This document shows, in pieces, positions 2,146-51,705 of a stretch of 64,000 nt of DNA; the first letter of the stretch is position 1; the number at the start of each line of letters is the position of its first letter. The translations under genes and the position numbers were made by a program. Under the pieces are notes generated by a model, which saw only the letters and a program-made list of their open reading frames with translations, searched no databases and had not been told where the DNA came from. Location of the stretch: the NCBI GenBank assembly GCA_000002435.2, contig CM018791.1; one strand, written 5' to 3'. The DNA is from Giardia intestinalis (Eukaryota).

Positions 2146-5100
2146 ATGTTACTAGTACTTCTCGCAAGTTGTATAGCTGTACAAGCCGCGGTGTGTGCGC
2201 CCGCGCTGATCGGCGCCGGGTGTGCGACATGCACAGGAGAGAACGACGGACAGACGTGCCTTACGTGTAATCCCCAAGAGAACAAGGTGCAGCCTGGCGG
2301 AAAGAAATGCGGAGTCGGCTGCCCGGCGAACTCCACCCCTAAGGAGAGCGTGTGCGAGTGCAACGGAGGATACAGGCCGAACGCCCAGGGCCAGTGCGAG
2401 CAAGACCCCGCCGCGGTGTGTGCGCCCGCGCTGATCGGCGCCGGGTGTGCGACATGCACAGGAGAGAACGACGGACAGACGTGCCTTACGTGTAATCCCC
2501 AAGAGAACAAGGTGCAGCCTGGCGGAAAGAAATGCGGAGTCGGCTGCCCGGCGAACTCCACCCCTAAGGAGAGCGTGTGCGAGTGCAACGGAGGATACAG
2601 GCCGAACGCCCAGGGCCAGTGCGAGCAAGACCCCGCCGCGGTGTGTGCGCCCGCGCTGATCGGCGCCGGGTGTGCGACATGCACAGGAGAGAACGACGGA
2701 CAGACGTGCCTTACGTGTAATCCCCAAGAGAACAAGGTGCAGCCTGGCGGAAAGAAATGCGGAGTCGGCTGCCCGGCGAACTCCACCCCTAAGGAGAGCG
2801 TGTGCGAGTGCAACGGAGGATACAGGCCGAACGCCCAGGGCCAGTGCGAGCAAGACCCCGCCGCGGTGTGTGCGCCCGCGCTGATCGGCGCCGGGTGTGC
2901 GACATGCACAGGAGAGAACGACGGACAGACGTGCCTTACGTGTAATCCCCAAGAGAACAAGGTGCAGCCTGGCGGAAAGAAATGCGGAGTCGGCTGCCCG
3001 GCGAACTCCACCCCTAAGGAGAGCGTGTGCGAGTGCAACGGAGGATACAGGCCGAACGCCCAGGGCCAGTGCGAGCAAGACCCCGCCGCGGTGTGTGCGC
3101 CCGCGCTGATCGGCGCCGGGTGTGCGACATGCACAGGAGAGAACGACGGACAGACGTGCCTTACGTGTAATCCCCAAGAGAACAAGGTGCAGCCTGGCGG
3201 AAAGAAATGCGGAGTCGGCTGCCCGGCGAACTCCACCCCTAAGGAGAGCGTGTGCGAGTGCAACGGAGGATACAGGCCGAACGCCCAGGGCCAGTGCGAG
3301 CAAGACCCCGCCGCGGTGTGTGCGCCCGCGCTGATCGGCGCCGGGTGTGCGACATGCACAGGAGAGAACGACGGACAGACGTGCCTTACGTGTAATCCCC
3401 AAGAGAACAAGGTGCAGCCTGGCGGAAAGAAATGCGGAGTCGGCTGCCCGGCGAACTCCACCCCTAAGGAGAGCGTGTGCGAGTGCAACGGAGGATACAG
3501 GCCGAACGCCCAGGGCCAGTGCGAGCAAGACCCCGCCGCGGTGTGTGCGCCCGCGCTGATCGGCGCCGGGTGTGCGACATGCACAGGAGAGAACGACGGA
3601 CAGACGTGCCTTACGTGTAATCCCCAAGAGAACAAGGTGCAGCCTGGCGGAAAGAAATGCGGAGTCGGCTGCCCGGCGAACTCCACCCCTAAGGAGAGCG
3701 TGTGCGAGTGCAACGGAGGATACAGGCCGAACGCCCAGGGCCAGTGCGAGCAAGACCCCGCCGCGGTGTGTGCGCCCGCGCTGATCGGCGCCGGGTGTGC
3801 GACATGCACAGGAGAGAACGACGGACAGACGTGCCTTACGTGTAATCCCCAAGAGAACAAGGTGCAGCCTGGCGGAAAGAAATGCGGAGTCGGCTGCCCG
3901 GCGAACTCCACCCCTAAGGAGAGCGTGTGCGAGTGCAACGGAGGATACAGGCCGAACGCCCAGGGCCAGTGCGAGCAAGACCCCGCCGCGGTGTGTGCGC
4001 CCGCGCTGATCGGCGCCGGGTGTGCGACATGCACAGGAGAGAACGACGGACAGACGTGCCTTACGTGTAATCCCCAAGAGAACAAGGTGCAGCCTGGCGG
4101 AAAGAAATGCGGAGTCGGCTGCCCGGCGAACTCCACCCCTAAGGAGAGCGTGTGCGAGTGCAACGGAGGATACAGGCCGAACGCCCAGGGCCAGTGCGAG
4201 CAAGACCCCGCCGCGGTGTGTGCGCCCGCGCTGATCGGCGCCGGGTGTGCGACATGCACAGGAGAGAACGACGGACAGACGTGCCTTACGTGTAATCCCC
4301 AAGAGAACAAGGTGCAGCCTGGCGGAAAGAAATGCGGAGTCGGCTGCCCGGCGAACTCCACCCCTAAGGAGAGCGTGTGCGAGTGCAACGGAGGATACAG
4401 GCCGAACGCCCAGGGCCAGTGCGAGCAAGACCCCGCCGCGGTGTGTGCGCCCGCGCTGATCGGCGCCGGGTGTGCGACATGCACAGGAGAGAACGACGGA
4501 CAGACGTGCCTTACGTGTAATCCCCAAGAGAACAAGGTGCAGCCTGGCGGAAAGAAATGCGGAGTCGGCTGCCCGGCGAACTCCACCCCTAAGGAGAGCG
4601 TGTGCGAGTGCAACGGAGGATACAGGCCGAACGCCCAGGGCCAGTGCGAGCAAGACCCCGCCGCGGTGTGTGCGCCCGCGCTGATCGGCGCCGGGTGTGC
4701 GACATGCACAGGAGAGAACGACGGACAGACGTGCCTTACGTGTAATCCCCAAGAGAACAAGGTGCAGCCTGGCGGAAAGAAATGCGGAGTCGGCTGCCCG
4801 GCGAACTCCACCCCTAAGGAGAGCGTGTGCGAGTGCAACGGAGGATACAGGCCGAACGCCCAGGGCCAGTGCGAGCAAGACCCCGCCGCGGTGTGTGCGC
4901 CCGCGCTGATCGGCGCCGGGTGTGCGACATGCACAGGAGAGAACGACGGACAGACGTGCCTTACGTGTAATCCCCAAGAGAACAAGGTGCAGCCTGGCGG
5001 AAAGAAATGCGGAGTCGGCTGCCCGGCGAACTCCACCCCTAAGGAGAGCGTGTGCGAGTGCAACGGAGGATACAGGCCGAACGCCCAGGGCCAGTGCGAG

Positions 5101-8100
5101 CAAGACCCCGCCGCGGTGTGTGCGCCCGCGCTGATCGGCGCCGGGTGTGCGACATGCACAGGAGAGAACGACGGACAGACGTGCCTTACGTGTAATCCCC
5201 AAGAGAACAAGGTGCAGCCTGGCGGAAAGAAATGCGGAGTCGGCTGCCCGGCGAACTCCACCCCTAAGGAGAGCGTGTGCGAGTGCAACGGAGGATACAG
5301 GCCGAACGCCCAGGGCCAGTGCGAGCAAGACCCCGCCGCGGTGTGTGCGCCCGCGCTGATCGGCGCCGGGTGTGCGACATGCACAGGAGAGAACGACGGA
5401 CAGACGTGCCTTACGTGTAATCCCCAAGAGAACAAGGTGCAGCCTGGCGGAAAGAAATGCGGAGTCGGCTGCCCGGCGAACTCCACCCCTAAGGAGAGCG
5501 TGTGCGAGTGCAACGGAGGATACAGGCCGAACGCCCAGGGCCAGTGCGAGCAAGACCCCGCCGCGGTGTGTGCGCCCGCGCTGATCGGCGCCGGGTGTGC
5601 GACATGCACAGGAGAGAACGACGGACAGACGTGCCTTACGTGTAATCCCCAAGAGAACAAGGTGCAGCCTGGCGGAAAGAAATGCGGAGTCGGCTGCCCG
5701 GCGAACTCCACCCCTAAGGAGAGCGTGTGCGAGTGCAACGGAGGATACAGGCCGAACGCCCAGGGCCAGTGCGAGCAAGACCCCGCCGCGGTGTGTGCGC
5801 CCGCGCTGATCGGCGCCGGGTGTGCGACATGCACAGGAGAGAACGACGGACAGACGTGCCTTACGTGTAATCCCCAAGAGAACAAGGTGCAGCCTGGCGG
5901 AAAGAAATGCGGAGTCGGCTGCCCGGCGAACTCCACCCCTAAGGAGAGCGTGTGCGAGTGCAACGGAGGATACAGGCCGAACGCCCAGGGCCAGTGCGAG
6001 CAAGACCCCGCCGCGGTGTGTGCGCCCGCGCTGATCGGCGCCGGGTGTGCGACATGCACAGGAGAGAACGACGGACAGACGTGCCTTACGTGTAATCCCC
6101 AAGAGAACAAGGTGCAGCCTGGCGGAAAGAAATGCGGAGTCGGCTGCCCGGCGAACTCCACCCCTAAGGAGAGCGTGTGCGAGTGCAACGGAGGATACAG
6201 GCCGAACGCCCAGGGCCAGTGCGAGCAAGACCCCGCCGCGGTGTGTGCGCCCGCGCTGATCGGCGCCGGGTGTGCGACATGCACAGGAGAGAACGACGGA
6301 CAGACGTGCCTTACGTGTAATCCCCAAGAGAACAAGGTGCAGCCTGGCGGAAAGAAATGCGGAGTCGGCTGCCCGGCGAACTCCACCCCTAAGGAGAGCG
6401 TGTGCGAGTGCAACGGAGGATACAGGCCGAACGCCCAGGGCCAGTGCGAGCAAGACCCCGCCGCGGTGTGTGCGCCCGCGCTGATCGGCGCCGGGTGTGC
6501 GACATGCACAGGAGAGAACGACGGACAGACGTGCCTTACGTGTAATCCCCAAGAGAACAAGGTGCAGCCTGGCGGAAAGAAATGCGGAGTCGGCTGCCCG
6601 GCGAACTCCACCCCTAAGGAGAGCGTGTGCGAGTGCAACGGAGGATACAGGCCGAACGCCCAGGGCCAGTGCGAGCAAGACCCCGCCGCGGTGTGTGCGC
6701 CCGCGCTGATCGGCGCCGGGTGTGCGACATGCACAGGAGAGAACGACGGACAGACGTGCCTTACGTGTAATCCCCAAGAGAACAAGGTGCAGCCTGGCGG
6801 AAAGAAATGCGGAGTCGGCTGCCCGGCGAACTCCACCCCTAAGGAGAGCGTGTGCGAGTGCAACGGAGGATACAGGCCGAACGCCCAGGGCCAGTGCGAG
6901 CAAGACCCCGCCGCGGTGTGTGCGCCCGCGCTGATCGGCGCCGGGTGTGCGACATGCACAGGAGAGAACGACGGACAGACGTGCCTTACGTGTAATCCCC
7001 AAGAGAACAAGGTGCAGCCTGGCGGAAAGAAATGCGGAGTCGGCTGCCCGGCGAACTCCACCCCTAAGGAGAGCGTGTGCGAGTGCAACGGAGGATACAG
7101 GCCGAACGCCCAGGGCCAGTGCGAGCAAGACCCCGCCGCGGTGTGTGCGCCCGCGCTGATCGGCGCCGGGTGTGCGACATGCACAGGAGAGAACGACGGA
7201 CAGACGTGCCTTACGTGTAATCCCCAAGAGAACAAGGTGCAGCCTGGCGGAAAGAAATGCGGAGTCGGCTGCCCGGCGAACTCCACCCCTAAGGAGAGCG
7301 TGTGCGAGTGCAACGGAGGATACAGGCCGAACGCCCAGGGCCAGTGCGAGCAAGACCCCGCCGCGGTGTGTGCGCCCGCGCTGATCGGCGCCGGGTGTGC
7401 GACATGCACAGGAGAGAACGACGGACAGACGTGCCTTACGTGTAATCCCCAAGAGAACAAGGTGCAGCCTGGCGGAAAGAAATGCGGAGTCGGCTGCCCG
7501 GCGAACTCCACCCCTAAGGAGAGCGTGTGCGAGTGCAACGGAGGATACAGGCCGAACGCCCAGGGCCAGTGCGAGCAAGACCCCGCCGCGGTGTGTGCGC
7601 CCGCGCTGATCGGCGCCGGGTGTGCGACATGCACAGGAGAGAACGACGGACAGACGTGCCTTACGTGTAATCCCCAAGAGAACAAGGTGCAGCCTGGCGG
7701 AAAGAAATGCGGAGTCGGCTGCCCGGCGAACTCCACCCCTAAGGAGAGCGTGTGCGAGTGCAACGGAGGATACAGGCCGAACGCCCAGGGCCAGTGCGAG
7801 CAAGACCCCGCCGCGGTGTGTGCGCCCGCGCTGATCGGCGCCGGGTGTGCGACATGCACAGGAGAGAACGACGGACAGACGTGCCTTACGTGTAATCCCC
7901 AAGAGAACAAGGTGCAGCCTGGCGGAAAGAAATGCGGAGTCGGCTGCCCGGCGAACTCCACCCCTAAGGAGAGCGTGTGCGAGTGCAACGGAGGATACAG
8001 GCCGAACGCCCAGGGCCAGTGCGAGCAAGACCCCGCCGCGGTGTGTGCGCCCGCGCTGATCGGCGCCGGGTGTGCGACATGCACAGGAGAGAACGACGGA

Positions 8101-8607
8101 CAGACGTGCCTTACGTGTAATCCCCAAGAGAACAAGGTGCAGCCTGGCGGAAAGAAATGCGGAGTCGGCTGCCCGGCGAACTCCACCCCTAAGGAGAGCG
8201 TGTGCGAGTGCAACGGAGGATACAGGCCGAACGCCCAGGGCCAGTGCGAGCAAGACCCCGCCGCGGTGTGTGCGCCCGCGCTGATCGGCGCCGGGTGTGC
8301 GACATGCACAGGAGAGAACGACGGACAGACGTGCCTTACGTGTAATCCCCAAGAGAACAAGGTGCAGCCTGGCGGAAAGAAATGCGGAGTCGGCTGCCCG
8401 GCGAACTCCACCCCTAAGGAGAGCGTGTGCGAGTGCAACGGAGGATACAGGCCGAACGCCCAGGGCCAGTGCGAGCCTTCTAATACTAATAAGAGTAGCG
8501 GTCTTTCTACCGGCGCCATAGCAGGCATCGCTGTGGCTGCTGTCATCGTTGTAGGAGGGCTCGTCGGCTTCCTTTGCTGGTGGTTCATATGTAGGGGGAA
8601 AGCGTAG
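2146..8607 (+). CDS. Variant-specific surface protein (VSP), 2153 aa: signal peptide, 28 identical 75-aa Cys-rich tandem modules (two CXXC motifs and an NST sequon per module), TM helix, CRGKA tail
   Basis: ATG at 2146 preceded by AT-rich 'caattaattacag'. N-terminal hydrophobic MLLVLLASCIAVQA. C-terminus ...GIAVAAVIVVGGLVGFLCWWFICRGKA* is the invariant Giardia VSP tail. The VSP extended poly(A) signal follows the stop. 10 Cys per 75-aa unit. Confidence 0.93.
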   Translation: MLLVLLASCIAVQAAVCAPALIGAGCATCTGENDGQTCLTCNPQENKVQPGGKKCGVGCPANSTPKESVCECNGGYRPNAQGQCEQDPAAVCAPALIGAGCATCTGENDGQTCLTCNPQENKVQPGGKKCGVGCPANSTPKESVCECNGGYRPNAQGQCEQDPAAVCAPALIGAGCATCTGENDGQTCLTCNPQENKVQPGGKKCGVGCPANSTPKESVCECNGGYRPNAQGQCEQDPAAVCAPALIGAGCATCTGENDGQTCLTCNPQENKVQPGGKKCGVGCPANSTPKESVCECNGGYRPNAQGQCEQDPAAVCAPALIGAGCATCTGENDGQTCLTCNPQENKVQPGGKKCGVGCPANSTPKESVCECNGGYRPNAQGQCEQDPAAVCAPALIGAGCATCTGENDGQTCLTCNPQENKVQPGGKKCGVGCPANSTPKESVCECNGGYRPNAQGQCEQDPAAVCAPALIGAGCATCTGENDGQTCLTCNPQENKVQPGGKKCGVGCPANSTPKESVCECNGGYRPNAQGQCEQDPAAVCAPALIGAGCATCTGENDGQTCLTCNPQENKVQPGGKKCGVGCPANSTPKESVCECNGGYRPNAQGQCEQDPAAVCAPALIGAGCATCTGENDGQTCLTCNPQENKVQPGGKKCGVGCPANSTPKESVCECNGGYRPNAQGQCEQDPAAVCAPALIGAGCATCTGENDGQTCLTCNPQENKVQPGGKKCGVGCPANSTPKESVCECNGGYRPNAQGQCEQDPAAVCAPALIGAGCATCTGENDGQTCLTCNPQENKVQPGGKKCGVGCPANSTPKESVCECNGGYRPNAQGQCEQDPAAVCAPALIGAGCATCTGENDGQTCLTCNPQENKVQPGGKKCGVGCPANSTPKESVCECNGGYRPNAQGQCEQDPAAVCAPALIGAGCATCTGENDGQTCLTCNPQENKVQPGGKKCGVGCPANSTPKESVCECNGGYRPNAQGQCEQDPAAVCAPALIGAGCATCTGENDGQTCLTCNPQENKVQPGGKKCGVGCPANSTPKESVCECNGGYRPNAQGQCEQDPAAVCAPALIGAGCATCTGENDGQTCLTCNPQENKVQPGGKKCGVGCPANSTPKESVCECNGGYRPNAQGQCEQDPAAVCAPALIGAGCATCTGENDGQTCLTCNPQENKVQPGGKKCGVGCPANSTPKESVCECNGGYRPNAQGQCEQDPAAVCAPALIGAGCATCTGENDGQTCLTCNPQENKVQPGGKKCGVGCPANSTPKESVCECNGGYRPNAQGQCEQDPAAVCAPALIGAGCATCTGENDGQTCLTCNPQENKVQPGGKKCGVGCPANSTPKESVCECNGGYRPNAQGQCEQDPAAVCAPALIGAGCATCTGENDGQTCLTCNPQENKVQPGGKKCGVGCPANSTPKESVCECNGGYRPNAQGQCEQDPAAVCAPALIGAGCATCTGENDGQTCLTCNPQENKVQPGGKKCGVGCPANSTPKESVCECNGGYRPNAQGQCEQDPAAVCAPALIGAGCATCTGENDGQTCLTCNPQENKVQPGGKKCGVGCPANSTPKESVCECNGGYRPNAQGQCEQDPAAVCAPALIGAGCATCTGENDGQTCLTCNPQENKVQPGGKKCGVGCPANSTPKESVCECNGGYRPNAQGQCEQDPAAVCAPALIGAGCATCTGENDGQTCLTCNPQENKVQPGGKKCGVGCPANSTPKESVCECNGGYRPNAQGQCEQDPAAVCAPALIGAGCATCTGENDGQTCLTCNPQENKVQPGGKKCGVGCPANSTPKESVCECNGGYRPNAQGQCEQDPAAVCAPALIGAGCATCTGENDGQTCLTCNPQENKVQPGGKKCGVGCPANSTPKESVCECNGGYRPNAQGQCEQDPAAVCAPALIGAGCATCTGENDGQTCLTCNPQENKVQPGGKKCGVGCPANSTPKESVCECNGGYRPNAQGQCEQDPAAVCAPALIGAGCATCTGENDGQTCLTCNPQENKVQPGGKKCGVGCPANSTPKESVCECNGGYRPNAQGQCEQDPAAVCAPALIGAGCATCTGENDGQTCLTCNPQENKVQPGGKKCGVGCPANSTPKESVCECNGGYRPNAQGQCEPSNTNKSSGLSTGAIAGIAVAAVIVVGGLVGFLCWWFICRGKA
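2176..8475 (+). repeat. Tandem array of ~28 x 225-bp units, all copies apparently identical at nucleotide level, in frame within the VSP gene
   Basis: Period-225 recurrence of identical embedded ORFs at 2222, 2447, ... 8297 (28 copies). The sequence lines repeat verbatim. The last unit diverges at 8476 (cagtgcgagccttctaat vs cagtgcgagcaagacccc). Confidence 0.95.
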
Positions 8608-8611
8608 ATGT

Positions 8612-8626
8612 ACTTAGGTAGTAAAC
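8612..8626 (+). terminator. VSP-type extended polyadenylation signal ACTTAGGTAGTAAAC (consensus ACTYAGRTAGTRAAY), 5 nt after TAG stop
   Basis: Exact match to the published VSP-specific 3' motif containing the general Giardia AGTRAAY signal. Confidence 0.85.
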
Positions 8627-9033
8627 GCGTCACTGTATATGGCTCATATAAATGTGCTGCTGGGCTCACTTGAGGACCTGGTCCAGAGATCGTGCGGGTA
8701 ATCATCGCTCCTTCCTGGCCAGTTCAGAGACGAGGGTTGGCTGTGGATGATATAATAGGGATCTCCCTTCACTTGTATACCAGGAGTCTTTTGCGTCCCT
8801 CAGTTGTTCCGCAGAGGTGTGCTCAGTCTGAGTATGCACGTCGGTCCTTTAGGGGTTCAGGCCTTCTTGCAGACTCTCTGCTCTACCGGTGGCGCCTCTC
8901 CTTAGTCTTTCTTCGTGGTGGGTGAAGCTCCGGTCACCATCCTTTTTTAGATGCCCCGTCTGCCAGGGGCTGCCATCGGGCTCTCCGCTGGCTGGGCCCC
9001 TCGGTGTCCGGGCAGCTGTGGTTCTGGGTCAGT

Positions 9034-10974
9034 GCTCTACAGTCGCGGTCACTAGGTCCCAGTGGGTTCGGATGGTGGGTGAGGAGGGGTTGCTGAGGCG
9101 GTGAGGCTGGTGGGACCGGGGGGTGTTCGCATGTGCCTCTGGGGTCAGTGGGTCAGTGAGGTGGTGGCTGTGGTGACTGGGGGCTATCCATCTATGATTC
9201 ACCCCTCTGTGGACTCGTGGTCTGTGAGTGCCTCCACCCAGACAGCACCCCAGGAGCCGGAGAGTGGTGCCAGCCTAGCTGCCCTCCCTCCTCGGTGCCT
9301 CCCAGTGCAGACTCACCGGAGGCCACTACCCTGTCAGCCACCCAAAGGAGCCGTGCACACCGGGACAGAGAGGATGACCAAGGGGGTCAAGCAGCCCTGC
9401 CACGAGGGTGCACAGCAACCAGCATGAGATGTAGGGTCTGCTCGAGCGATGTAGTGGCAGACGACTCCCTCTGACAGCGACCCTGGTGACTGCACTGGTC
9501 TGCTCTCGAGGCTGAGTGACAGTGTGCACAGATGGACATGAGTGCAGGAGGACCGTCCACACACGGACAGACTGTGTGGACCCAGAGAGGACTGGAGTCT
9601 GCTCGGGACACGCTGACTGTGTGCCCATACGAGAGTGCCAGGCAACTACTCAAGCACCGAGAGGCAGGTACAGACACGGGCACTAGAGATCCCCAGCCAG
9701 ACACATTGCTATGCTCATCCACAGGGGCATCAGAGGGCCAGGTGGAGTCACCCTCACAGTTAGGGCCTGATAGGAAGCCAGAGGACTCAAACACTACAGC
9801 AGGCCCAAGGGAGGCACACTCCAGGCAGGTGAGCAGTGGCAGAGCCTTGATAGCTGCCATCCACCCCCATGACACCCAGGCAGGCACCAGACTCCGAAGA
9901 CTCGCTGGCCTCGACTGATGACCCGAGGGGGCAGCAGCCAGAGGAGTGAGGAGGCCTTCGGACACCACAAGAGGCCGGCTGTCCAGCAGGCTATGAGGCA
10001 GACAGGTGGCCTCTGAGCACCATAAGGCACAGGAGCCGACCATCATGAGTGATGCCCGATCACAGAGATGACCACGAGCGCCCTCCACCGCACTCTGGGG
10101 GGCTGTCGATCATCCCACTGCCTCTCATAGCAGACCTCCTTGGGGGCAGTGCAGTGGGTCCCAGCTCATACAGGAGGGTGTGTGCCCCCCTCAGTATAGG
10201 ATGCCCCGACTCTTCCCGAGGGGTCATCAGAGCCACGAGGAGGGGTCAAGGTCCTGGTGGATCACACCGGGAACCCCTCGAATGGGCACAGCAGGTGATG
10301 TTGGGTGACCCTCAGCGTGCTCCTCTCTGCATGGTAGAGCATCCTGAGACCAAGGAAGCTCACCCCTGCCTACGGATGACACACAGCGCTCCACAACGAG
10401 GACCCACCAGGAGCAGCACAGCTGACCACGGGGGCAGTGCAGCCACCCGGTACCCCACCATGCCAGTCTTCTGGGCCATCACACTAGAGGCCTGAGAGAA
10501 CCCCATCCCATCCACAGGGTCATCCACACCCCTGCTGGCCCGAGGTGAACTGCACCCATCGAGGCACTGGACAGGGCATGCTGGGGGCCCAGCAGATCCA
10601 CACAGAGCATCAGCACAGAGCATCAGCGAGTAGCAGGAGAGGCTGCGATGGCCTGCCTCAGCCCTCACGTACCAGCCAGCCAGAGGCAGTACTACCCGAG
10701 ACATGCAGGGGCCAAGGGAGGCGCTCAGTCAGGGGACATGACACAATCGTCGGTGCCTGTGTCTCGGGGAGTGCAACGCAGGCTGGGGATCAGACGCAAC
10801 CACCTTGGCAAACAGAGAGGGGATCACCCACCACCCCACTGGCCCACCAGACCCAGGGGCACATACAAGCACCCCCACCCGGTCCCCCGGTCCCACCAGC
10901 CTCACCGCCTCAGCAACCCCTCCTCACCCACCAGCCGGCCCGCTATGGAACCTACGTGACCGTGACCGTGGGAG
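9034..10974. other. GC-rich, strand-skewed central spacer of the palindrome (G-rich on + strand at left edge, C-rich on + strand at right edge); no credible CDS
   Basis: Only overlapping multi-frame ORFs with Pro/Arg/Gly/His-rich translations typical of GC-rich non-coding DNA. Composition mirrors itself across the centre (degenerate IR). Confidence 0.6.
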
Positions 10975-11382
10975 CGCTGACCCAGAACCACAGCTGCCCG
11001 GACACCGAGGGGCCCAGCCAGTGGAGAGCCCGATGGCAGCCCCTGGCAGACGGGGCATCTAAAAAAGGATGGTGACCGGAGCTTCACCCACCACGAAGAA
11101 AGACTAAGGAGAGGCGCCACCGGTAGAGCAGAGAGTCTGCAAGAAGGCCTGAACCCCTAAAGGACCGACGTGCATACTCAGACTGAGCACACCTCTGCGG
11201 AACAACTGAGGGACGCAAAAGACTCCTGGTATACAAGTGAAGGGAGATCCCTATTATATCATCCACAGCCAACCCTCGTCTCTGAACTGGCCAGGAAGGA
11301 GCGATGATTACCCGCACGATCTCTGGACCAGGTCCTCAAGTGAGCCCAGCAGCACATTTATATGAGCCATATACAGTGACGC

Positions 11383-11397
11383 GTTTACTACCTAAGT
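11383..11397 (-). terminator. Mirror copy of VSP extended polyadenylation signal for the short VSP paralog
   Basis: gtttactacctaagt on + strand is the reverse complement of ACTTAGGTAGTAAAC; it lies just 3' of the 11402..11788 CDS. Confidence 0.8.
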
Positions 11398-11401
11398 ACA
11401 T

Positions 11402-11788
11402 CTACGCTTTCCCCCTACATATGAACCACCAGCAAAGGAAGCCGACGAGCCCTCCTACAACGATGACAGCAGCCACAGCGATGCCTGCTATGGCGCCGGT
11501 AGAAAGACCGCTACTCTTATTAGTATTAGAAGGCTCGCACTGGCCCTGGGCGTTCGGCCTGTATCCTCCGTTGCACTCGCACACGCTCTCCTTAGGGGTG
11601 GAGTTCGCCGGGCAGCCGACTCCGCATTTCTTTCCGCCAGGCTGCACCTTGTTCTCTTGGGGATTACACGTAAGGCACGTCTGTCCGTCGTTCTCTCCTG
11701 TGCATGTCGCACACCCGGCGCCGATCAGCGCGGGCGCACACACCGCGGCTTGTACAGCTATACAACTTGCGAGAAGTACTAGTAACAT
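11402..11788 (-). CDS. Short VSP paralog (128 aa): same signal peptide, a single Cys-rich module, TM helix and CRGKA tail
   Basis: Protein MLLVLLASCIAVQA + one 75-aa module + ...PSNTNKSSGLSTGAIAGIAVAAVIVVGGLVGFLCWWFICRGKA*. Its N-terminus and the C-terminal 44 aa match the long copy exactly. Same promoter-proximal sequence and poly(A) signal. Confidence 0.75.
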   Translation of the reverse strand: MLLVLLASCIAVQAAVCAPALIGAGCATCTGENDGQTCLTCNPQENKVQPGGKKCGVGCPANSTPKESVCECNGGYRPNAQGQCEPSNTNKSSGLSTGAIAGIAVAAVIVVGGLVGFLCWWFICRGKA

Positions 11789-14190
11789 TGGAGTTAGGAT
11801 CTGTAATTAATTGGTACTTTCTTCACTCAGATGTATAGATTGGTCCATGAATGAGAAGAGCTTAAATTGGCAGCGTCTTTCTGTAACTTAGTTAATTAAA
11901 GAAGCTTAGAATCGGGGGCGTATTGCTACTGGGAAGCGACCAATATCATAGATTTATCTCTTGATTTAAATAAGAGTAAGGCTAGTTAATACAAAGTTAG
12001 ACTCAAACATTACACATAGTACGAGGAGCTCATAGTATGCCTGTGGTCATATCTTTTCTGCCCCTCCTACTGACGTTATTGGCTTCCTCTGCTGGAAAAG
12101 GCGTAGACTCACGCTTAGCTGTAAACGCGTCTCCTACTACTCCATCGCGGGCATGTTGTCTGCTCCATGCGAGTCGCGCACCAATATCTGAACAGACAAT
12201 GGACATCTGAATCTGCAATGCTCCGGCTCATATAAGGGTGCCTCGCTTGTCGCCGGCTTCTCCTAGTGGCTACCCACCTAATCGCTCTCGACCTTCTCTA
12301 CATAATCAGCCACATCGTTGTACTTCTTTGCACCTTAATACGATCCTCATCAGTCCAGACAATCCAGAACATCCTACTCGCAGAGAGGAATATACCGTCA
12401 AAGCATAGTTTCTATGAGGCGCTATCGAGATAGTTTGTATAGCTGCCTCATTATAGTTAAGGAGAGCACAGCCTACTGACAAGATCAGGCTGGATGCAAG
12501 TAAGGGCTGTGTGTGAGATATGCTGAGAAGGATGTGTGTATGCGATCAACATGCCCTATATTTGGCTGCAGATAGCTACAGGCTACGCTCTTTCGGGGCT
12601 TATTCATTAATGTGTAGATGACTTCTAAAGTCCTTAGTGATGAGATACATCACTCCCAGTAGTGCACACATACTGGATGTCTTCAACAGAGACTGCCATT
12701 AAACTCCTTGAGGCTGGCTGCTTTAAAAGTGACACCCCTGCATTCTTGTTGAGTGCAGCAGTACGCTGATATATCCTGCATGAATATCCATCACAAATAG
12801 ACAACTCTATGAATAAAGCCAAAGAAGATCAGATGATGAAGTCGAGACAGTTGGCAGAAGAAATCAGAGTGCATTAGAAAGCTCATAAGATCGAGAAGCT
12901 AAGCATAATGACTAGATAAGGGCTGTGTGCACAATCTTCGATCGGTATCGCCGAGCAAGATGCTGATGCGTGCTATTGCTTTACGTTTGAGTTGCGACTG
13001 AGGTAGCTCAACAACAAATTAGGGCTGCCACAATTGCTTATCTATCCGCAAATATACCATGGCAATGACAGTGCAGCAGATAGGAATGTTCACAGGGACA
13101 TCATGAGTATTATCGCTAGAAGTCCTATTCCAACAACCTTCTATGGCTTCATGAGCATGCTCACAGCAATTCTTTCGATAGAATGTCGATTATAGAAACG
13201 CAGCCATGGATTGTAAAGTTGCTCTGCAGAAGTGATGTTCCCTCTCTTCACCTTTTACGCAAGGGACTAATGCAAACAGTTTGCCTCCCGGTAGCAACAA
13301 GATGTGCAGCACAGAGTGTATGGCCCCTTGTGTGCATCAGATCAGAGCTTAAGAGTAGAGCCGAACGGCTGTCTGCTTGTCTTGCGACGAAGGCATGGGC
13401 AAAAGCTCTGCCACACTTTATGGAATTAGCCTTAAGGTGAGTGGTGGTTATGTGCCTAGTGCCTTGGAAGCCTGGTACGCACAGTATAGGACAGACTCGA
13501 TCAGGTGTTCAGGATACGTGGAGTAGGGTTGACATTGCAGTGGGCTTGCATCAAAGAGCGTGGCGGGCTGTGTCCCAACCTCAGAAAGAGTAGTGCGGTC
13601 TAAAATAGAGAGAAGTAGGAGGTGCTTTATTGCAAGTACGTCTTAACAAAATAGCAGAGAGGCTCTTCTGCACGCTGTCAAGAGCAGTACAAGCTCTCCG
13701 CTAGCGCAAGACCGTTCCACGCATCAACTCTATTAGCTATGTAAAAGGCCGTCAGAAAAGCGAGACGGCGCCTAGCTGTCTGCGAGTAAAGCCTTCAGGG
13801 TTTAAAGCATGGGAGGGCAAGGCCCGGTCTGGAGAGCGTCCTGCTGGCCAGGCAGGCCGGGCATCGGTCGAGCCAGCAGGTGGGCTCCAAACCCACTGCG
13901 TTGGCTTCAAACTCTCCGCACAGGGGCACGCCTGAGGGGCCCGCAAGCCCCTGGTGCAGAGGACGGGGCCTGCTGGTGTTGTGGTCACGACAGTGGCTCT
14001 GGTGTACTCCAGGAGCGGCCACCGCAGGGCTGGTCGGGCCGTGTGAGCAGGGTTCTGCGGAGCCCGAGTAGAGTCTGTTCTGTGTGTATGGCCACTCAGA
14101 GGCAGTGGCCTAACGATATTCATCGACCTACTAACTAGTAAACCCGATAAAGAGCCGGTTGGAATACGCAAATACGTGCATAAGAGCAAA

Positions 14191-50103: not shown

Positions 50104-51705
50104 CTACAGTTGACTCGTGAACCCACTGATTCCAGACTGAACAGAGAGGCTGTCACCATCCGAGAGGCGGATAGCTTTGCCACGCTTTGGCTTGCTGCCA
50201 CCGCCGCCGCCGAAACAATTGCCTCCATTCTTCTTGTGGCAGAGGAACCACCAGCAGAGGAATCCGGCAACAGCTCCAATGATCAGTAGTGGCACTATAA
50301 CAGAGGTTGCCACCAGGCCGGACTTGAGAGTACAGGTCGCGCCGTTTCCTGTGTAGCTACCACCACATTGACAGGAGTAATTGCCCGACGCGGTGTTAAG
50401 CACACAGTCCCCTCTTCCGCTGCAGACGACCCCCTTTTGAACACATCCAAGTGGATAGCAATTCCCGTCCTGTGCCCGGATGGACCCGAAGTGGCACCTG
50501 CACTTCCAGAGTCCGTCCACGCCATAGCGGCAATCCCCTCTGTTGTTGCAAACGGTCTTAATGCGTCCATCGCCTGTAATCACACATTTATTATGCGTCT
50601 CATCATTAGGTACACAGGCTCCATCTATGTTCATGGAGTTCCTATTGCATGAGCAACCCCACTCACCATATTCATTTTCTACGCAGACTCCAGCGCCATT
50701 ACAAACATAGACACCTGTGAGACACTCATCGGGAACACAGACGACACCTGCGTCACCTGGTCCTGCCGGGCGCTCGCTGTATGGATAATTGCAGGACTCA
50801 CAAAGCGGTCCTGAATATGCGCCTGGGCACGCACACATACCAGCTTCCTCCCCTTCAGAGATGCAAGTACCATTGTTCATACACTCACCGCCATTGGTAC
50901 ATAGAGGGGAGGAGCAGTCTTCTCCTGTGTAACCATCATTACAAAGGCACCTATACCCCAACATCCCAATACACTGGCCATTGCCGCTGCATAAACTGTC
51001 CTCAGTTCCTCCCCAATATCCACAATTAGCTATTCCACAATCTGATCCCGCGAAAGAAAGATGCGGGCATGTGCATATTCCAGTATCCGTATTACATGTT
51101 CCTCCATTAGCACAGTCTCTGTTACCAGCACATATAAAGGAGTCGCATGCCTCCCCACTAAACCCTGGCCGGCATCTGCAGCCAAAAATTTGCCCCAGCC
51201 TAGGCGGCGTTCCCGGGAGCACAGTACATTCTCCTCCACCAAAGCACAAGTATGGATTGTTCCTAGTTATATTTTCACGCCCGCACGTGTCGTAGTAGCA
51301 ATCGCGTCCGCTATAGCCATGGAAGCAATTGCAATGACCACGATAGGTGTGATCGTCGTCAAGAATACACTGGCCTCTGCCGTGACACACTGAGTCAGAC
51401 TTGCATGTGAAGGCCTCACAGAACGGGCCCGAAAATCCAGATCTACAAGAGCATTCAAACAGGCCATGGCCCGTCTCCACACACTCACCGCCCATGCTGC
51501 AGTACACGAGATGAGTACTGAAACGCGTCTGTATTAATTCAGCGTGACACAAGTTCTTGCCCTCACAATTGTCACCCAAAACTCCATCAAAACAGACACA
51601 TTTGCCCCACAGACATCTACCCAATTGGTTGCAATCCTCATCTGTAGTGCACGTGCTCAGAAATATATCTACAAGGCCACATAGCAAAAGCAGCTGGGAA
51701 AGCAT
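50104..51705 (-). CDS. High-cysteine membrane protein (HCMP), EGF-like Cys-rich ectodomain, single C-terminal TM, short cytoplasmic tail (not CRGKA)
   Basis: Signal peptide MLSQLLLLCGLVDIFLSTC. Dense CXXC/CXC patterns (GxCxCxxGYxGxxC EGF-like spacing). TM SVIVPLLIIGAVAGFLCWWFLC followed by HKKNGG...; the TM resembles the VSP TM, as is typical for Giardia HCMPs. ATG in 'tttaaataATG'. Confidence 0.88.
   Translation of the reverse strand: MLSQLLLLCGLVDIFLSTCTTDEDCNQLGRCLWGKCVCFDGVLGDNCEGKNLCHAELIQTRFSTHLVYCSMGGECVETGHGLFECSCRSGFSGPFCEAFTCKSDSVCHGRGQCILDDDHTYRGHCNCFHGYSGRDCYYDTCGRENITRNNPYLCFGGGECTVLPGTPPRLGQIFGCRCRPGFSGEACDSFICAGNRDCANGGTCNTDTGICTCPHLSFAGSDCGIANCGYWGGTEDSLCSGNGQCIGMLGYRCLCNDGYTGEDCSSPLCTNGGECMNNGTCISEGEEAGMCACPGAYSGPLCESCNYPYSERPAGPGDAGVVCVPDECLTGVYVCNGAGVCVENEYGEWGCSCNRNSMNIDGACVPNDETHNKCVITGDGRIKTVCNNRGDCRYGVDGLWKCRCHFGSIRAQDGNCYPLGCVQKGVVCSGRGDCVLNTASGNYSCQCGGSYTGNGATCTLKSGLVATSVIVPLLIIGAVAGFLCWWFLCHKKNGGNCFGGGGGSKPKRGKAIRLSDGDSLSVQSGISGFTSQL

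What the first reader, a model, noticed from the sequence alone, without database searches (positions are those of the whole stretch)
9034..10974. GC-rich, strand-skewed palindrome centre with decaying arm similarity and G-runs
Between the arms lies ~1.9 kb with no credible ORF. It is G-rich on the + strand near 9060..9200 (…ggtgggtgaggaggggttgctgaggcggtgaggctggtgggaccgggggg…) and C-rich on the + strand near 10800..10930 (the mirror image). Arm similarity fades progressively rather than ending sharply.

This is where convergent VSP transcripts would collide. G-runs could form G4 structures. It is a candidate recombination/inversion centre, or a source of non-coding or small RNAs.
Basis: seen in the sequence. 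Interest (0 to 1): 0.55.

Follow-up and report, generated by a model that had tools for sequence, protein, structure and literature searches.

The report
Spacer of a Giardia VSP palindrome
The interval is the unduplicated middle of two surface-antigen (VSP) genes that face each other in Giardia lamblia. It is one copy of a non-coding ~2.7-kb repeat unit found behind many VSP genes, so it is a new example of a known but unexplained arrangement, not a gene or an RNA.

Summary
Perfect inverted arms end at 9037/10972. The 1,934 nt between them are GC-rich, with G-rich and C-rich mirror tracts at their two ends, and hold no credible gene.

The similarity does not fade gradually. It drops from 100% to a patchy ~78% over 133-147 nt (9038-9170 vs 10825-10971). 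The remaining 1.65-kb core (9171-10824) has no symmetry.

The locus is Giardia lamblia WB chromosome 3, between VSP GL50803_0050290 (28 perfect 75-aa repeats) and its one-repeat twin GL50803_00102178.

The centre is not unique. Nine other core copies (seven metagenome/NCBI contigs with one each, L018 with two; four copies in isolate DH alone) carry the same core at 89-95% identity. Most, where enough sequence is available, lie next to a VSP 3' end or a Cys-rich pseudogene fragment. All carry the same imperfect G-rich inverted repeat.

The 12 convergent VSP pairs published for WB are 2,526-2,813 bp apart; this pair is 2,794 bp apart.

Frameshifting indels, absence of codon periodicity, and empty Pfam, Rfam, folding and miRNA checks all argue against a gene or a structured RNA.

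Most likely the centre is the loop of a repeat unit whose own inverted repeats allow the neighbouring VSP to be copied or converted onto the other side. That mechanism is inferred, not shown.

The parts
2146..8607 (+). Left VSP gene, GL50803_0050290 (2,153 aa), with signal peptide, TM segment and CRGKA tail
   Evidence: Translation. Identified through Table S1 of preprint 10.1101/2022.03.07.483299.
2185..8476 (+). Tandem array of 28.0 copies of a 225-nt (75-aa) repeat, 100% identical. Its twin gene has one copy.
   Evidence: Tandem Repeats Finder; inverted-repeat list.
8260..9037 (.). Inner perfect left arm (last repeat, VSP C-terminus and 430 nt of 3' flank), 100% complementary to 10972-11749
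   Evidence: I2.
8620..8626 (+). Giardia poly(A) signal AGTAAAC, 13 nt after the left VSP stop (mirror copy at 11383-11389 on the - strand)
   Evidence: The motif is listed for both genes in preprint Table S6.
8653..11356 (.). Proposed repeat unit (2,704 nt): imperfect terminal inverted repeats plus core. The outer end starts at TGTGCTGCTGG.
   Evidence: Homology begins at this motif in several different outside contexts: a VSP 3' UTR, a Mec-17 acetyltransferase gene, a Cys-rich pseudogene fragment, and the end of an RT element that sits inside another core.
8900..9000 (.). Most conserved island of the arm (89-95% mean pairwise identity). Contains an invariant 33-mer at 8966-8998; a T6 run lies at 8943-8948. 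Mirror at about 11009-11109.
9038..9170 (+). Left inner, diverged part of the old inverted repeat. G-rich on the + strand (G4Hunter up to 1.72; no canonical G3 motif).
   Evidence: Present in all family copies.
9171..10824 (.). Asymmetric non-coding core. No symmetry and no other match in the window. 89-95% identical to 9 copies elsewhere.
9252..9345 (.). 94-nt segment present only in this copy, bounded by the 8-nt direct repeat CGGCTCCT (- strand, 9353-9346 and 9259-9252)
10825..10971 (-). Right inner, diverged part of the old inverted repeat. G-rich on the - strand (G4Hunter -2.08). Canonical G4 motifs at 10827-10854 and 10872-10894.
10972..11749 (.). Inner perfect right arm
   Evidence: I2.
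11402..11788 (-). Right mini-VSP, GL50803_00102178 (128 aa, one repeat copy)
   Evidence: Translation; Pfam VSP E=1.2e-18; identified.
11533..13933 (.). Outer perfect right arm (VSP 5' end plus 2.1 kb upstream), 100% complementary to 1-2401. The left arm starts at window base 1, so the arms may be longer.
   Evidence: I1. The DH homologue aligns on to 13998.

Best explanation
The interval is the unduplicated centre of a tail-to-tail VSP palindrome on Giardia lamblia WB chromosome 3. It has two components:
- the diverged, G-rich inner ends (about 135-147 nt each) of an old, imperfect inverted repeat;
- a 1.65-kb asymmetric non-coding core.

Together with the arm sequence that begins 46 nt after each VSP stop codon, it forms one copy of a dispersed ~2.7-kb repeat unit (8653-11356). 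This unit lies at the 3' end of many VSP genes.

Proposed mechanism (inferred, not shown):
1. The unit's own inverted repeats supply the homology for arm-to-arm gene conversion or a fold-back template switch.
2. This copies or converts the neighbouring VSP and its flank onto the other side of the unit.
3. That would explain why the arms are 100% identical outward from a point inside the old repeat.
4. It would also explain why identity can never reach further in than the end of that repeat (about 560 nt past the stop).
5. The core cannot be homogenised because it is the loop.

The core itself shows no sign of sequence-specific function. The G-rich tracts may help by stalling replication or transcription, but this is speculative.
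For: Shown:
- Palindrome anatomy and residual symmetry.
- Both flanking genes are VSPs, and the locus is identified.
- The core is multi-copy. There are five ENA metagenome contigs (L011-L015) and three contigs of isolate DH (L016-L018, four copies). Wherever the contig reaches far enough, a copy lies next to a VSP 3' end (L011, L012, L013, L016, L017, L018) or a Cys-rich pseudogene fragment (L015); L014 is too short to tell. Copies are 89-95% identical and roughly equidistant.
- The G-rich inner inverted repeat is present in every copy, on both sides.
- L012 has the complete unit, with arms only 87% identical, a VSP on one side, and an unrelated Mec-17 acetyltransferase gene on the other.
- L018 has the unit between two different VSPs, with arms 76% identical.
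- The outer end is discrete in several different contexts.
- The syntenic DH copy is mosaic: 96.1% upstream, 88% in the VSP, 73-93% through the unit.

From the literature:
- All 12 convergent VSP pairs in WB are 2,526-2,813 bp apart (PMC7000408). This pair is 2,794 bp apart.
- Identical flanks in such pairs end abruptly 318-559 (572) nt past the stop (PMC2996952). Here perfect identity ends at 430 nt and residual symmetry at 563 nt.
Against: - No recombination or conversion event was observed. The mechanism is inferred from static sequences.
- I could not search the WB genome, so it is unverified that the other WB pairs carry this same core. It is suggested only by the constant spacing and by a remark in the preprint about near-identical intergenic regions.
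- The arms' outer parts are much more diverged between copies (61-81%) than the core (about 92%). A simple 'the unit spreads as one piece' model does not explain this.
- L012 could equally be a pair that lost one VSP.
- The 28-versus-1 repeat difference shows that homogenisation is not complete across the arms.
Confidence: 0.6

Rival explanations
1. The 2.7-kb unit is itself a mobile element: a fold-back-like, non-autonomous element with long terminal inverted repeats. It inserts just behind VSP genes, and the centre is its internal region.
For: - The outer terminus (TGTGCTGCTGG) is discrete in several unrelated contexts.
- The copies show a star-like divergence pattern of 89-95%.
- A ~3-kb element with a reverse-transcriptase gene has 165-nt terminal inverted repeats, and its ends are about 65% similar to arm 8665-8996. 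It sits inside the core at two different sites and in both orientations.
Against: - No target-site duplication was seen at the L012 ends.
- There is no transposase or other ORF, even in the family consensus.
- No empty site was found.
- The arms are far more diverged than the core, which is odd for an element that moves as a whole.
Confidence: 0.25
2. The centre acts through RNA. Read-through from one VSP across the centre into the antisense of the other copy yields a long hairpin RNA (stem = arms, loop = centre). This would feed the RNAi pathway that silences VSPs. Alternatively, the core encodes a non-coding or small RNA.
For: - The geometry allows it: perfect arms of 778 nt and more include the VSP 3' end, which is conserved across the gene family.
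- There is no second poly(A) signal anywhere in the centre.
- Transcript overlap is reported for 81% of mapped tail-to-tail gene pairs in WB (PMC3610916).
- The core is conserved at about 92%.
Against: - Each VSP has a canonical AGTAAAC signal 13 nt after its stop.
- There is no Rfam match at E<=1.
- Local folding z-scores are those of random sequence (mean 0.12, minimum -2.7 over 132 windows).
- None of the 56 published Argonaute-bound miRNAs tested maps in the window with up to 4 mismatches.
- Substitutions are spread evenly, with no strongly conserved block longer than expected.
- The centre has no AT-rich initiator-like stretch.
Confidence: 0.12
3. The core is a decayed protein-coding gene: a VSP pseudogene or a remnant of a transposable-element ORF.
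For: - Pseudogenes are reported to be frequent between tail-to-tail pairs (preprint).
- The + strand composition of the core (A .235, C .313, G .305, T .147) resembles the sense strand of the VSP repeats and of the RT element.
- NCBI annotates ORFs on DH copies as 'Ser/Thr protein kinase, partial'.
Against: - 8 ORFs have no Pfam hit at E<=1.
- tblastn of three Cys-rich proteins finds nothing better than E=0.9.
- phmmer against 1.84 billion representative proteins finds six hits: four are pseudo-ORFs of this same family, and two weak ones (E 7e-05 and 2e-04) were not examined.
- 95 of 97 indels between copies are not multiples of three.
- Substitutions show no codon-position bias in any ORF.
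- The family consensus restores no ORF longer than 234 aa.
- Homologous 'proteins' switch reading frame relative to the window.
Confidence: 0.08
4. The G-rich tracts are the functional part. They lie on the sense strand 430-560 nt behind each VSP, and could form G4 structures or R-loops that pause or terminate read-through transcription. They would act as an insulator between the two genes.
For: - G-richness on the strand pointing into the core is kept in every copy, on both sides. The sequence and length vary (119-169 nt, 75-95% identity).
- Two of the four canonical G4 motifs in the 64-kb window lie at 10827-10894.
Against: - The left tract has no canonical three-tetrad motif even with loops up to 12 nt.
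- G4Hunter scores of 1.4-2.1 are matched elsewhere in the window.
- There are no transcription data.
- The idea does not explain the 1.65-kb core.
Confidence: 0.15
5. The palindrome or its centre is an assembly artefact of the long-read WB assembly.
For: - The arms are 100% identical, and the two copies differ only in repeat number.
- Short-read assemblies break inside the repeat.
- A noisy unplaced scaffold made of this repeat exists.
Against: - An independent DH assembly has a 127-aa one-repeat VSP followed by the same arm and core down to 9562.
- L012 has the same arm-core-arm layout with non-identical arms.
- A fold-back read artefact would have no 1.9-kb asymmetric spacer.
- Inverted VSP pairs have been known since before genome sequencing (PMC2996952).
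Confidence: 0.03

Closest known systems
Inverted (tail-to-tail) pairs of identical vsp genes in Giardia lamblia WB (vsp1267; Adam et al. 2010, PMC2996952; Xu et al. 2020, PMC7000408)
   Same: - Convergent VSP genes with 2.4-3.2 kb of intervening non-coding DNA.
- Flanks are identical up to an abrupt divergence point 318-559 nt past the stop.
- Here the spacing is 2,794 bp and the divergence point is at 430 nt.
   Different: - The two ORFs are not identical (28 versus 1 copies of a 225-nt repeat), so the pair is absent from the published tables of identical pairs.
- Those papers do not describe the intervening DNA as a conserved repeat unit with its own inverted repeat. Only the 2022 preprint notes near-identical intergenic regions for some pairs.
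Large palindromes with unique spacers kept identical by arm-to-arm gene conversion (human Y-chromosome palindromes P1-P8; from my own knowledge)
   Same: - Near-perfect long arms that carry multi-copy genes.
- A short non-duplicated spacer.
- A sharp arm/spacer boundary.
   Different: - The scale is kilobases rather than up to megabases.
- Here the spacer is itself a dispersed repeat carrying an older inverted repeat.
- Conversion was not demonstrated.
Palindrome formation primed by short inverted repeats after a break (Tetrahymena rDNA; yeast and mammalian gene amplification models; from my own knowledge)
   Same: A pre-existing imperfect inverted repeat lies exactly at the inner edge of a perfect large palindrome, with a unique loop between.
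   Different: - This is an interstitial duplication, with no evidence of a break, a dicentric chromosome or amplification.
- The comparison is purely inferential.
Fold-back / long-TIR non-autonomous transposable elements (e.g. Drosophila FB; from my own knowledge)
   Same: - Long imperfect terminal inverted repeats (about 520 nt) around a non-coding middle.
- Discrete ends.
- Multiple dispersed copies.
   Different: - No target-site duplication, no transposase partner and no empty sites were found.
- The arms are more diverged than the middle.
GilD, the 'dead' non-LTR retrotransposon family of Giardia, found in gene-poor regions next to VSP genes (statement in PMC2861651)
   Same: - An RT-bearing ~3-kb element lies inside the core in other copies, and its ends resemble the arms (about 65%).
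- Indels bounded by microhomology occur, such as the 94-nt segment bounded by CGGCTCCT.
   Different: - The window's centre has no RT domain and no convincing similarity to the RT element's interior.
- That the RT element is GilD is my inference; it was not tested.

Membership tests
Giardia VSP tail-to-tail inverted pair | Two convergent genes that are both VSPs (signal peptide, CXXC-rich ectodomain, TM segment, CRGKA tail) | tested here: met
   Translations; Pfam PF03302 E=1.2e-18; both are annotated as VSP in WB.
Giardia VSP tail-to-tail inverted pair | About 2.4-3.2 kb of non-coding DNA between the ORFs | tested here: met
   The gap is 8608-11401 = 2,794 nt. Published range: 2,526-2,813 and 2,393-3,222.
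Giardia VSP tail-to-tail inverted pair | 3' flanks identical up to an abrupt divergence point a few hundred nt past the stop | tested here: met
   100% identity up to 430 nt past the stop. Published range: 318-559 nt.
Giardia VSP tail-to-tail inverted pair | The two ORFs are identical | tested here: not met
   2,153 aa versus 128 aa. They are identical except for 28 versus 1 repeat copies.
Dispersed VSP-3' repeat unit (defined in this report) | Core homologous to 9171-10824, flanked by an imperfect G-rich inverted repeat | tested here: met
   9 other core copies at 89-95% identity. Inner inverted repeat present in all copies.
Protein-coding gene or pseudogene | Similarity to a protein family, a conserved reading frame, and codon-position bias of substitutions | tested here: not met
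Known structured RNA, or a published Giardia miRNA source | Match to an Rfam model, unusually stable local fold, or a published small RNA mapping to it | tested here: not met
   RNA-seq coverage was not testable here.
G-quadruplex-forming sequence | Four runs of at least 3 G separated by loops of 1-7 nt | tested here: inconclusive
   Met on the - strand at 10827-10854 and 10872-10894. Not met in the left tract 9061-9187, which has only G2 runs. Folding in vitro or in vivo was not testable.
Terminal-inverted-repeat / fold-back transposable element | Terminal inverted repeats with discrete ends in unrelated contexts | tested here: met
Terminal-inverted-repeat / fold-back transposable element | Target-site duplication and empty (unoccupied) sites | tested here: not met
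   No duplication at the L012 ends. Empty sites could not be searched for without whole Giardia genomes.
GilD-type non-LTR retrotransposon | Reverse-transcriptase ORF or its remnant | tested here: not met
   No RVT_1 hit in the centre. Only the arm ends resemble the RT element's ends.

The most novel reading that the evidence does not exclude
The ~2.7-kb unit (8653-11356) is an unnamed 'palindrome-nucleating' module of Giardia. Wherever it lands or persists behind a VSP gene, its own imperfect inverted repeats, with G4-prone inner ends, trigger fold-back copying or gene conversion. This duplicates that VSP in inverted orientation.

If so, the module would create the long-known but unexplained identical VSP pairs and would shape the antigen repertoire. 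The resulting hairpin-forming loci might also feed the RNAi pathway that silences VSPs.
Probability: 0.25. Interest if true: 0.7.

Novelty: new member of a known kind. Interest (0 to 1): 0.42.

Why it matters
Identical inverted VSP pairs were called 'an interesting, but cryptic observation' (PMC2996952). VSPs are the antigens Giardia switches to evade immunity.

The DNA between such a pair is a conserved repeat unit with its own older inverted repeat. In one contig (L012) it occurs beside a single VSP. This gives a concrete, testable model for how the pairs arise and why their spacing and divergence points are so uniform.

For this specific finding, the practical message is that the centre is neither a hidden gene nor an RNA locus.

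Tried and rejected
- Rfam scan of 8000-12000 at E<=1: nothing.
- Pfam on 8 centre ORFs at E<=1: nothing.
- tblastn of the window mini-VSP, a 506-aa VSP from L011 and the window's EGF-like Cys-rich protein against the core: nothing better than E=0.9. I rejected the VSP-pseudogene reading.
- BLAST of the centre against the rest of the window: only the residual inverted repeat.
- Exact look-up of the mini-VSP in the contig collection: not on record.
- Short-read Logan contigs reached through a neighbouring gene stop inside the 225-nt repeat. They give no view of the centre.
- JGI metagenome scan with a 22-nt invariant core motif: 0 matches.
- Third protein search, with + strand ORF 10545-11075: 0 hits.
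- phmmer of the 233-aa ORF against 1.84 billion representatives: six hits. Four are pseudo-ORFs of this same family; two weak ones (P0012, P0013; E 7e-05 and 2e-04) were not followed up.
- Search of the preprint's supplementary intergenic sequences for core and arm motifs: none. Those files are truncated.
- Mapping of 56 published miRNAs: none.
- Sliding-window RNA folding: no outliers.
- Family consensus ORF reconstruction: no long ORF.
- An early idea was that L011 holds a 'nested copy of the unit'. I revised it: that piece is the end of an RT-bearing element inserted in the core.
- Sigma-70 and intrinsic-terminator scans are not meaningful for a eukaryote. I ignored them, apart from noting the hairpin plus T6 run at 8921-8948.
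- The Arkhipova & Morrison 2001 paper on GilD could not be read.
Full report
**1. What is there**

The window opens with a very large inverted repeat.
- Bases 1-2401 are 100% complementary to 11533-13933.
- Bases 8260-9037 are 100% complementary to 10972-11749.
- Between the two parts of the left arm lies a tandem array of 28.0 perfect copies of a 225-nt unit, at 2185-8476. The right arm has one copy.

The left arm encodes a 2,153-aa protein and the right arm a 128-aa protein. They share the same signal peptide, a 75-aa Cys-rich repeat, a transmembrane segment and the CRGKA tail. The short protein matches Pfam VSP at E=1.2e-18. Each gene has the Giardia poly(A) signal AGTAAAC 13 nt after its stop.

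The sequences are listed in Table S1 of preprint 10.1101/2022.03.07.483299. They are GL50803_0050290 and GL50803_00102178 on chromosome 3 (NC_051858.1) of Giardia lamblia WB.

**2. Check of the observation**

The interval between the perfect arms is 9038-10971 (1,934 nt).
- Bases 9060-9200 are 48% G on the + strand, and 10800-10930 are 50% C.
- The longest stop-free stretch is 240 aa. Dinucleotide shuffles give 180 +/- 42, and 7.6% of them reach 240.

The rest of the centre, the 1,654-nt core at 9171-10824, has no symmetry and no other match in the window. It is strand-asymmetric throughout, with A 23.5% and T 14.7%.

| Segment | Complementarity to the other arm |
|---|---|
| up to 9037 / from 10972 | 100% |
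| next ~31 nt (9038-9068) | about 70% |
| 9069-9122 / 10884-10937 (54 nt) | 98% |
| 11-nt indel | - |
| 9119-9170 / 10825-10876 (52 nt) | 79% |
| 9171-10824 (core) | none |

So the 'progressive fading' is really a sharp step followed by a short patchy zone. The residual alignment scores 79, against 24 +/- 3 in shuffles.

**3. The centre is not unique**

The 233-aa ORF at 9387-10088 (- strand) was used only as a handle for a database search. It found eight database 'proteins' at 42-80% identity. These switch reading frame relative to the window, so the similarity is at the DNA level.

A second ORF (10360-10704, - strand) found three ORFs from Giardia duodenalis isolate DH (GCA_000498715.1). NCBI names them 'Ser/Thr protein kinase (partial)'. 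I judge that name spurious.

The contigs carrying these ORFs (L011-L018) match the core at 84-92% by BLASTN.
- Four copies come from three contigs of the single DH genome.
- Three contigs come from one metagenome sample.
- Wherever the contig reaches far enough, the copy lies next to the 3' end of a VSP gene (L011, L012, L013, L016, L017, L018) or a Cys-rich pseudogene fragment (L015). L014 is too short to tell.
- Ungapped pairwise identities in the core are 88-97% and roughly equidistant.
- The flanking genes of L012 have no counterpart in the window, so L012 is a different locus.

**4. The core does not code for protein or a structured RNA**

- Of 97 indels between the window core and its homologues, 95 are not multiples of three.
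- Variable sites show no codon-position bias in any of five ORFs (p=0.16-0.93).
- The family consensus restores no ORF longer than 234 aa.
- Pfam finds nothing at E<=1.
- tblastn with three Cys-rich proteins finds nothing better than E=0.9.
- phmmer against 1.84 billion representative proteins returns six hits. Four are pseudo-ORFs of this same family; two weak ones (E 7e-05 and 2e-04) were not examined.
- Rfam finds nothing.
- Folding z-scores over 132 windows have mean 0.12 and SD 0.98, with a minimum of -2.7.
- None of the 56 published Argonaute-associated miRNAs I tested maps in the window.

**5. Anatomy of the repeat unit**

Between copies, conservation is uneven:

| Region | Window coordinates | Mean pairwise identity |
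|---|---|---|
| Core | 9200-10800 | about 92% |
| Island in the arm | 8900-9000 | 89-95% |
| G-rich tracts | about 9000-9200 and 10800-10950 | 75-84% |
| Outer arm | 8650-8850 | 61-71% |

The G-rich inner inverted repeat is present in every copy, on both sides. Its length varies (119-169 nt), but it is always G-rich on the strand that points into the core. It is therefore an ancestral feature of the unit, not a decaying trace of the WB duplication.

Arm homology starts at TGTGCTGCTGG (window 8653, 46 nt past the stop) in several different outside contexts:
- a VSP 3' UTR;
- the 3' side of a Mec-17 acetyltransferase gene (L012);
- a Cys-rich pseudogene fragment (L015);
- the end of an RT-bearing element that sits inside another copy's core (L011, L018).

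L012 shows the whole unit with arms only 87% identical and a VSP on one side only. L018 shows the unit between two different VSPs, with arms 76% identical.

**6. Fit with the literature**

- Xu et al. list 12 convergent identical VSP pairs in WB with spacings of 2,526-2,813 bp (PMC7000408). This pair, absent from their table, has 2,794 bp.
- Adam et al. report that flanks of identical tail-to-tail pairs are identical up to an abrupt divergence point 318-559 (572) nt past the stop. They call the pairs 'an interesting, but cryptic observation' (PMC2996952).
- Here perfect identity ends at 430 nt and the old inverted repeat ends at 563 nt. That is where the published maximum lies.
- The preprint notes that some pairs have almost identical intergenic regions, and that pseudogenes are frequent between tail-to-tail pairs.

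**7. Other copies carry an RT element**

In DH, a ~3.05-kb element with an RVT_1 ORF (Pfam E=7.6e-25) lies inside the core.
- In L018 and L011 it sits at 9908/10341, flanked by a 431-nt direct duplication of the core at 97% identity.
- In L017 it sits at 9562, in the opposite orientation.
- It has 165-nt terminal inverted repeats.
- Its ends are about 65% similar to arm 8665-8996.
- It is probably GilD, which is reported to lie next to VSP genes (PMC2861651). That assignment is my inference.

**8. The syntenic copy in DH is mosaic**

L017 has a 127-aa one-repeat VSP with the same upstream region:

| Region | Identity to WB |
|---|---|
| Upstream 2,145 nt (no indels) | 96.1% |
| VSP CDS | 88% |
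| Outer arm | 73% |
| Island | 79% |
| Core | 89-93% |

From the VSP onward, the syntenic copy is no closer to WB than paralogues are. This points to frequent exchange among paralogous VSP/unit modules.

**9. Mechanism**

Shown:
- the anatomy;
- the family of copies;
- the non-coding nature of the core;
- the ancestral inverted repeat.

Inferred:
- The unit's inverted repeat provides the homology for fold-back template switching or arm-to-arm gene conversion.
- This makes everything outward of a point inside the repeat identical.
- The core is the loop that cannot be homogenised.

The G-rich tracts include two canonical G4 motifs on the - strand at 10827-10894. The left side has only two-tetrad runs. 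They could promote stalling, but that is speculation.

Transcript collision is not required, because each gene has its own poly(A) signal. Read-through and hairpin RNA remain untested.

**10. Verdict**

The finding is real, and it is a further example of a known Giardia arrangement. The new information is that the spacer is a conserved, non-coding repeat unit with its own older inverted repeat. The reason the core is better conserved than the arms is unexplained.

Noticed in passing
window 2185-8476 vs 11533-11749: The left VSP has 28.0 copies of a 225-nt repeat, all 100% identical, while its otherwise identical twin has exactly one. A noisy unplaced WB scaffold (NW_024037090.1) made of this repeat appears in the preprint's tables.
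   Followed up: partly
window 9252-9345: A 94-nt segment is present only in this copy of the core. It is bounded by the 8-nt direct repeat CGGCTCCT, and is absent from all six homologues that cover the site. This looks like a microhomology-mediated deletion in the others, or an insertion here.
   Followed up: partly
L018 3449-6495; L017 11090-14055; L011 1-474: A ~3-kb RT-bearing element with 165-nt terminal inverted repeats is inserted into the core at two different sites and in both orientations. In L018 it is flanked by a 431-nt direct duplication of core sequence. Inverted termini and so long a duplication are odd for a non-LTR retrotransposon.
   Followed up: partly
L016 10001-10489; L017 10001-10195; L018 2722-2913: NCBI annotates short ORFs on the non-coding core of isolate DH as 'Serine/threonine protein kinase (partial)'. 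This is almost certainly a spurious annotation.
   Followed up: partly
L017 6725-11090 vs window 13998-9562: The WB-DH comparison is mosaic: 96.1% identity with no indels in the 2.1 kb upstream of the VSP, then 88% in the CDS and 73-93% through arm and core. The break lies within or near the VSP gene.
   Followed up: partly
window 8900-9000 (mirror about 11009-11109): The best-conserved part of the arms is a GC-rich island with an invariant 33-mer (8966-8998). It holds a T6/A6 run (8943-8948 / 11061-11066) preceded by a small hairpin. The A-run reads outward, antisense to each VSP. Its role is unknown.
   Followed up: no
window 1 and 13934-13998: The left arm starts at base 1 of the window, and the DH homologue aligns 65 nt beyond the right arm's end. 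The palindrome arms therefore probably extend left of the window.
   Followed up: no
L001-L010 (Logan short-read contigs): Short-read assemblies of isolates that carry the neighbouring 449-aa gene all stop inside the 225-nt repeat. No ORF from the centre is on record for them. This palindrome and its paralogous cores seem not to assemble from short reads.
   Followed up: partly
window 50104-51705 (-), 19360-41709 (-): The window also holds an EGF-repeat Cys-rich membrane protein with a VSP-like TM segment but no CRGKA tail and no repeat unit behind it. It also holds a 7,449-aa ORF that is a dynein heavy chain by the Pfam marks on the Logan contigs.
   Followed up: no
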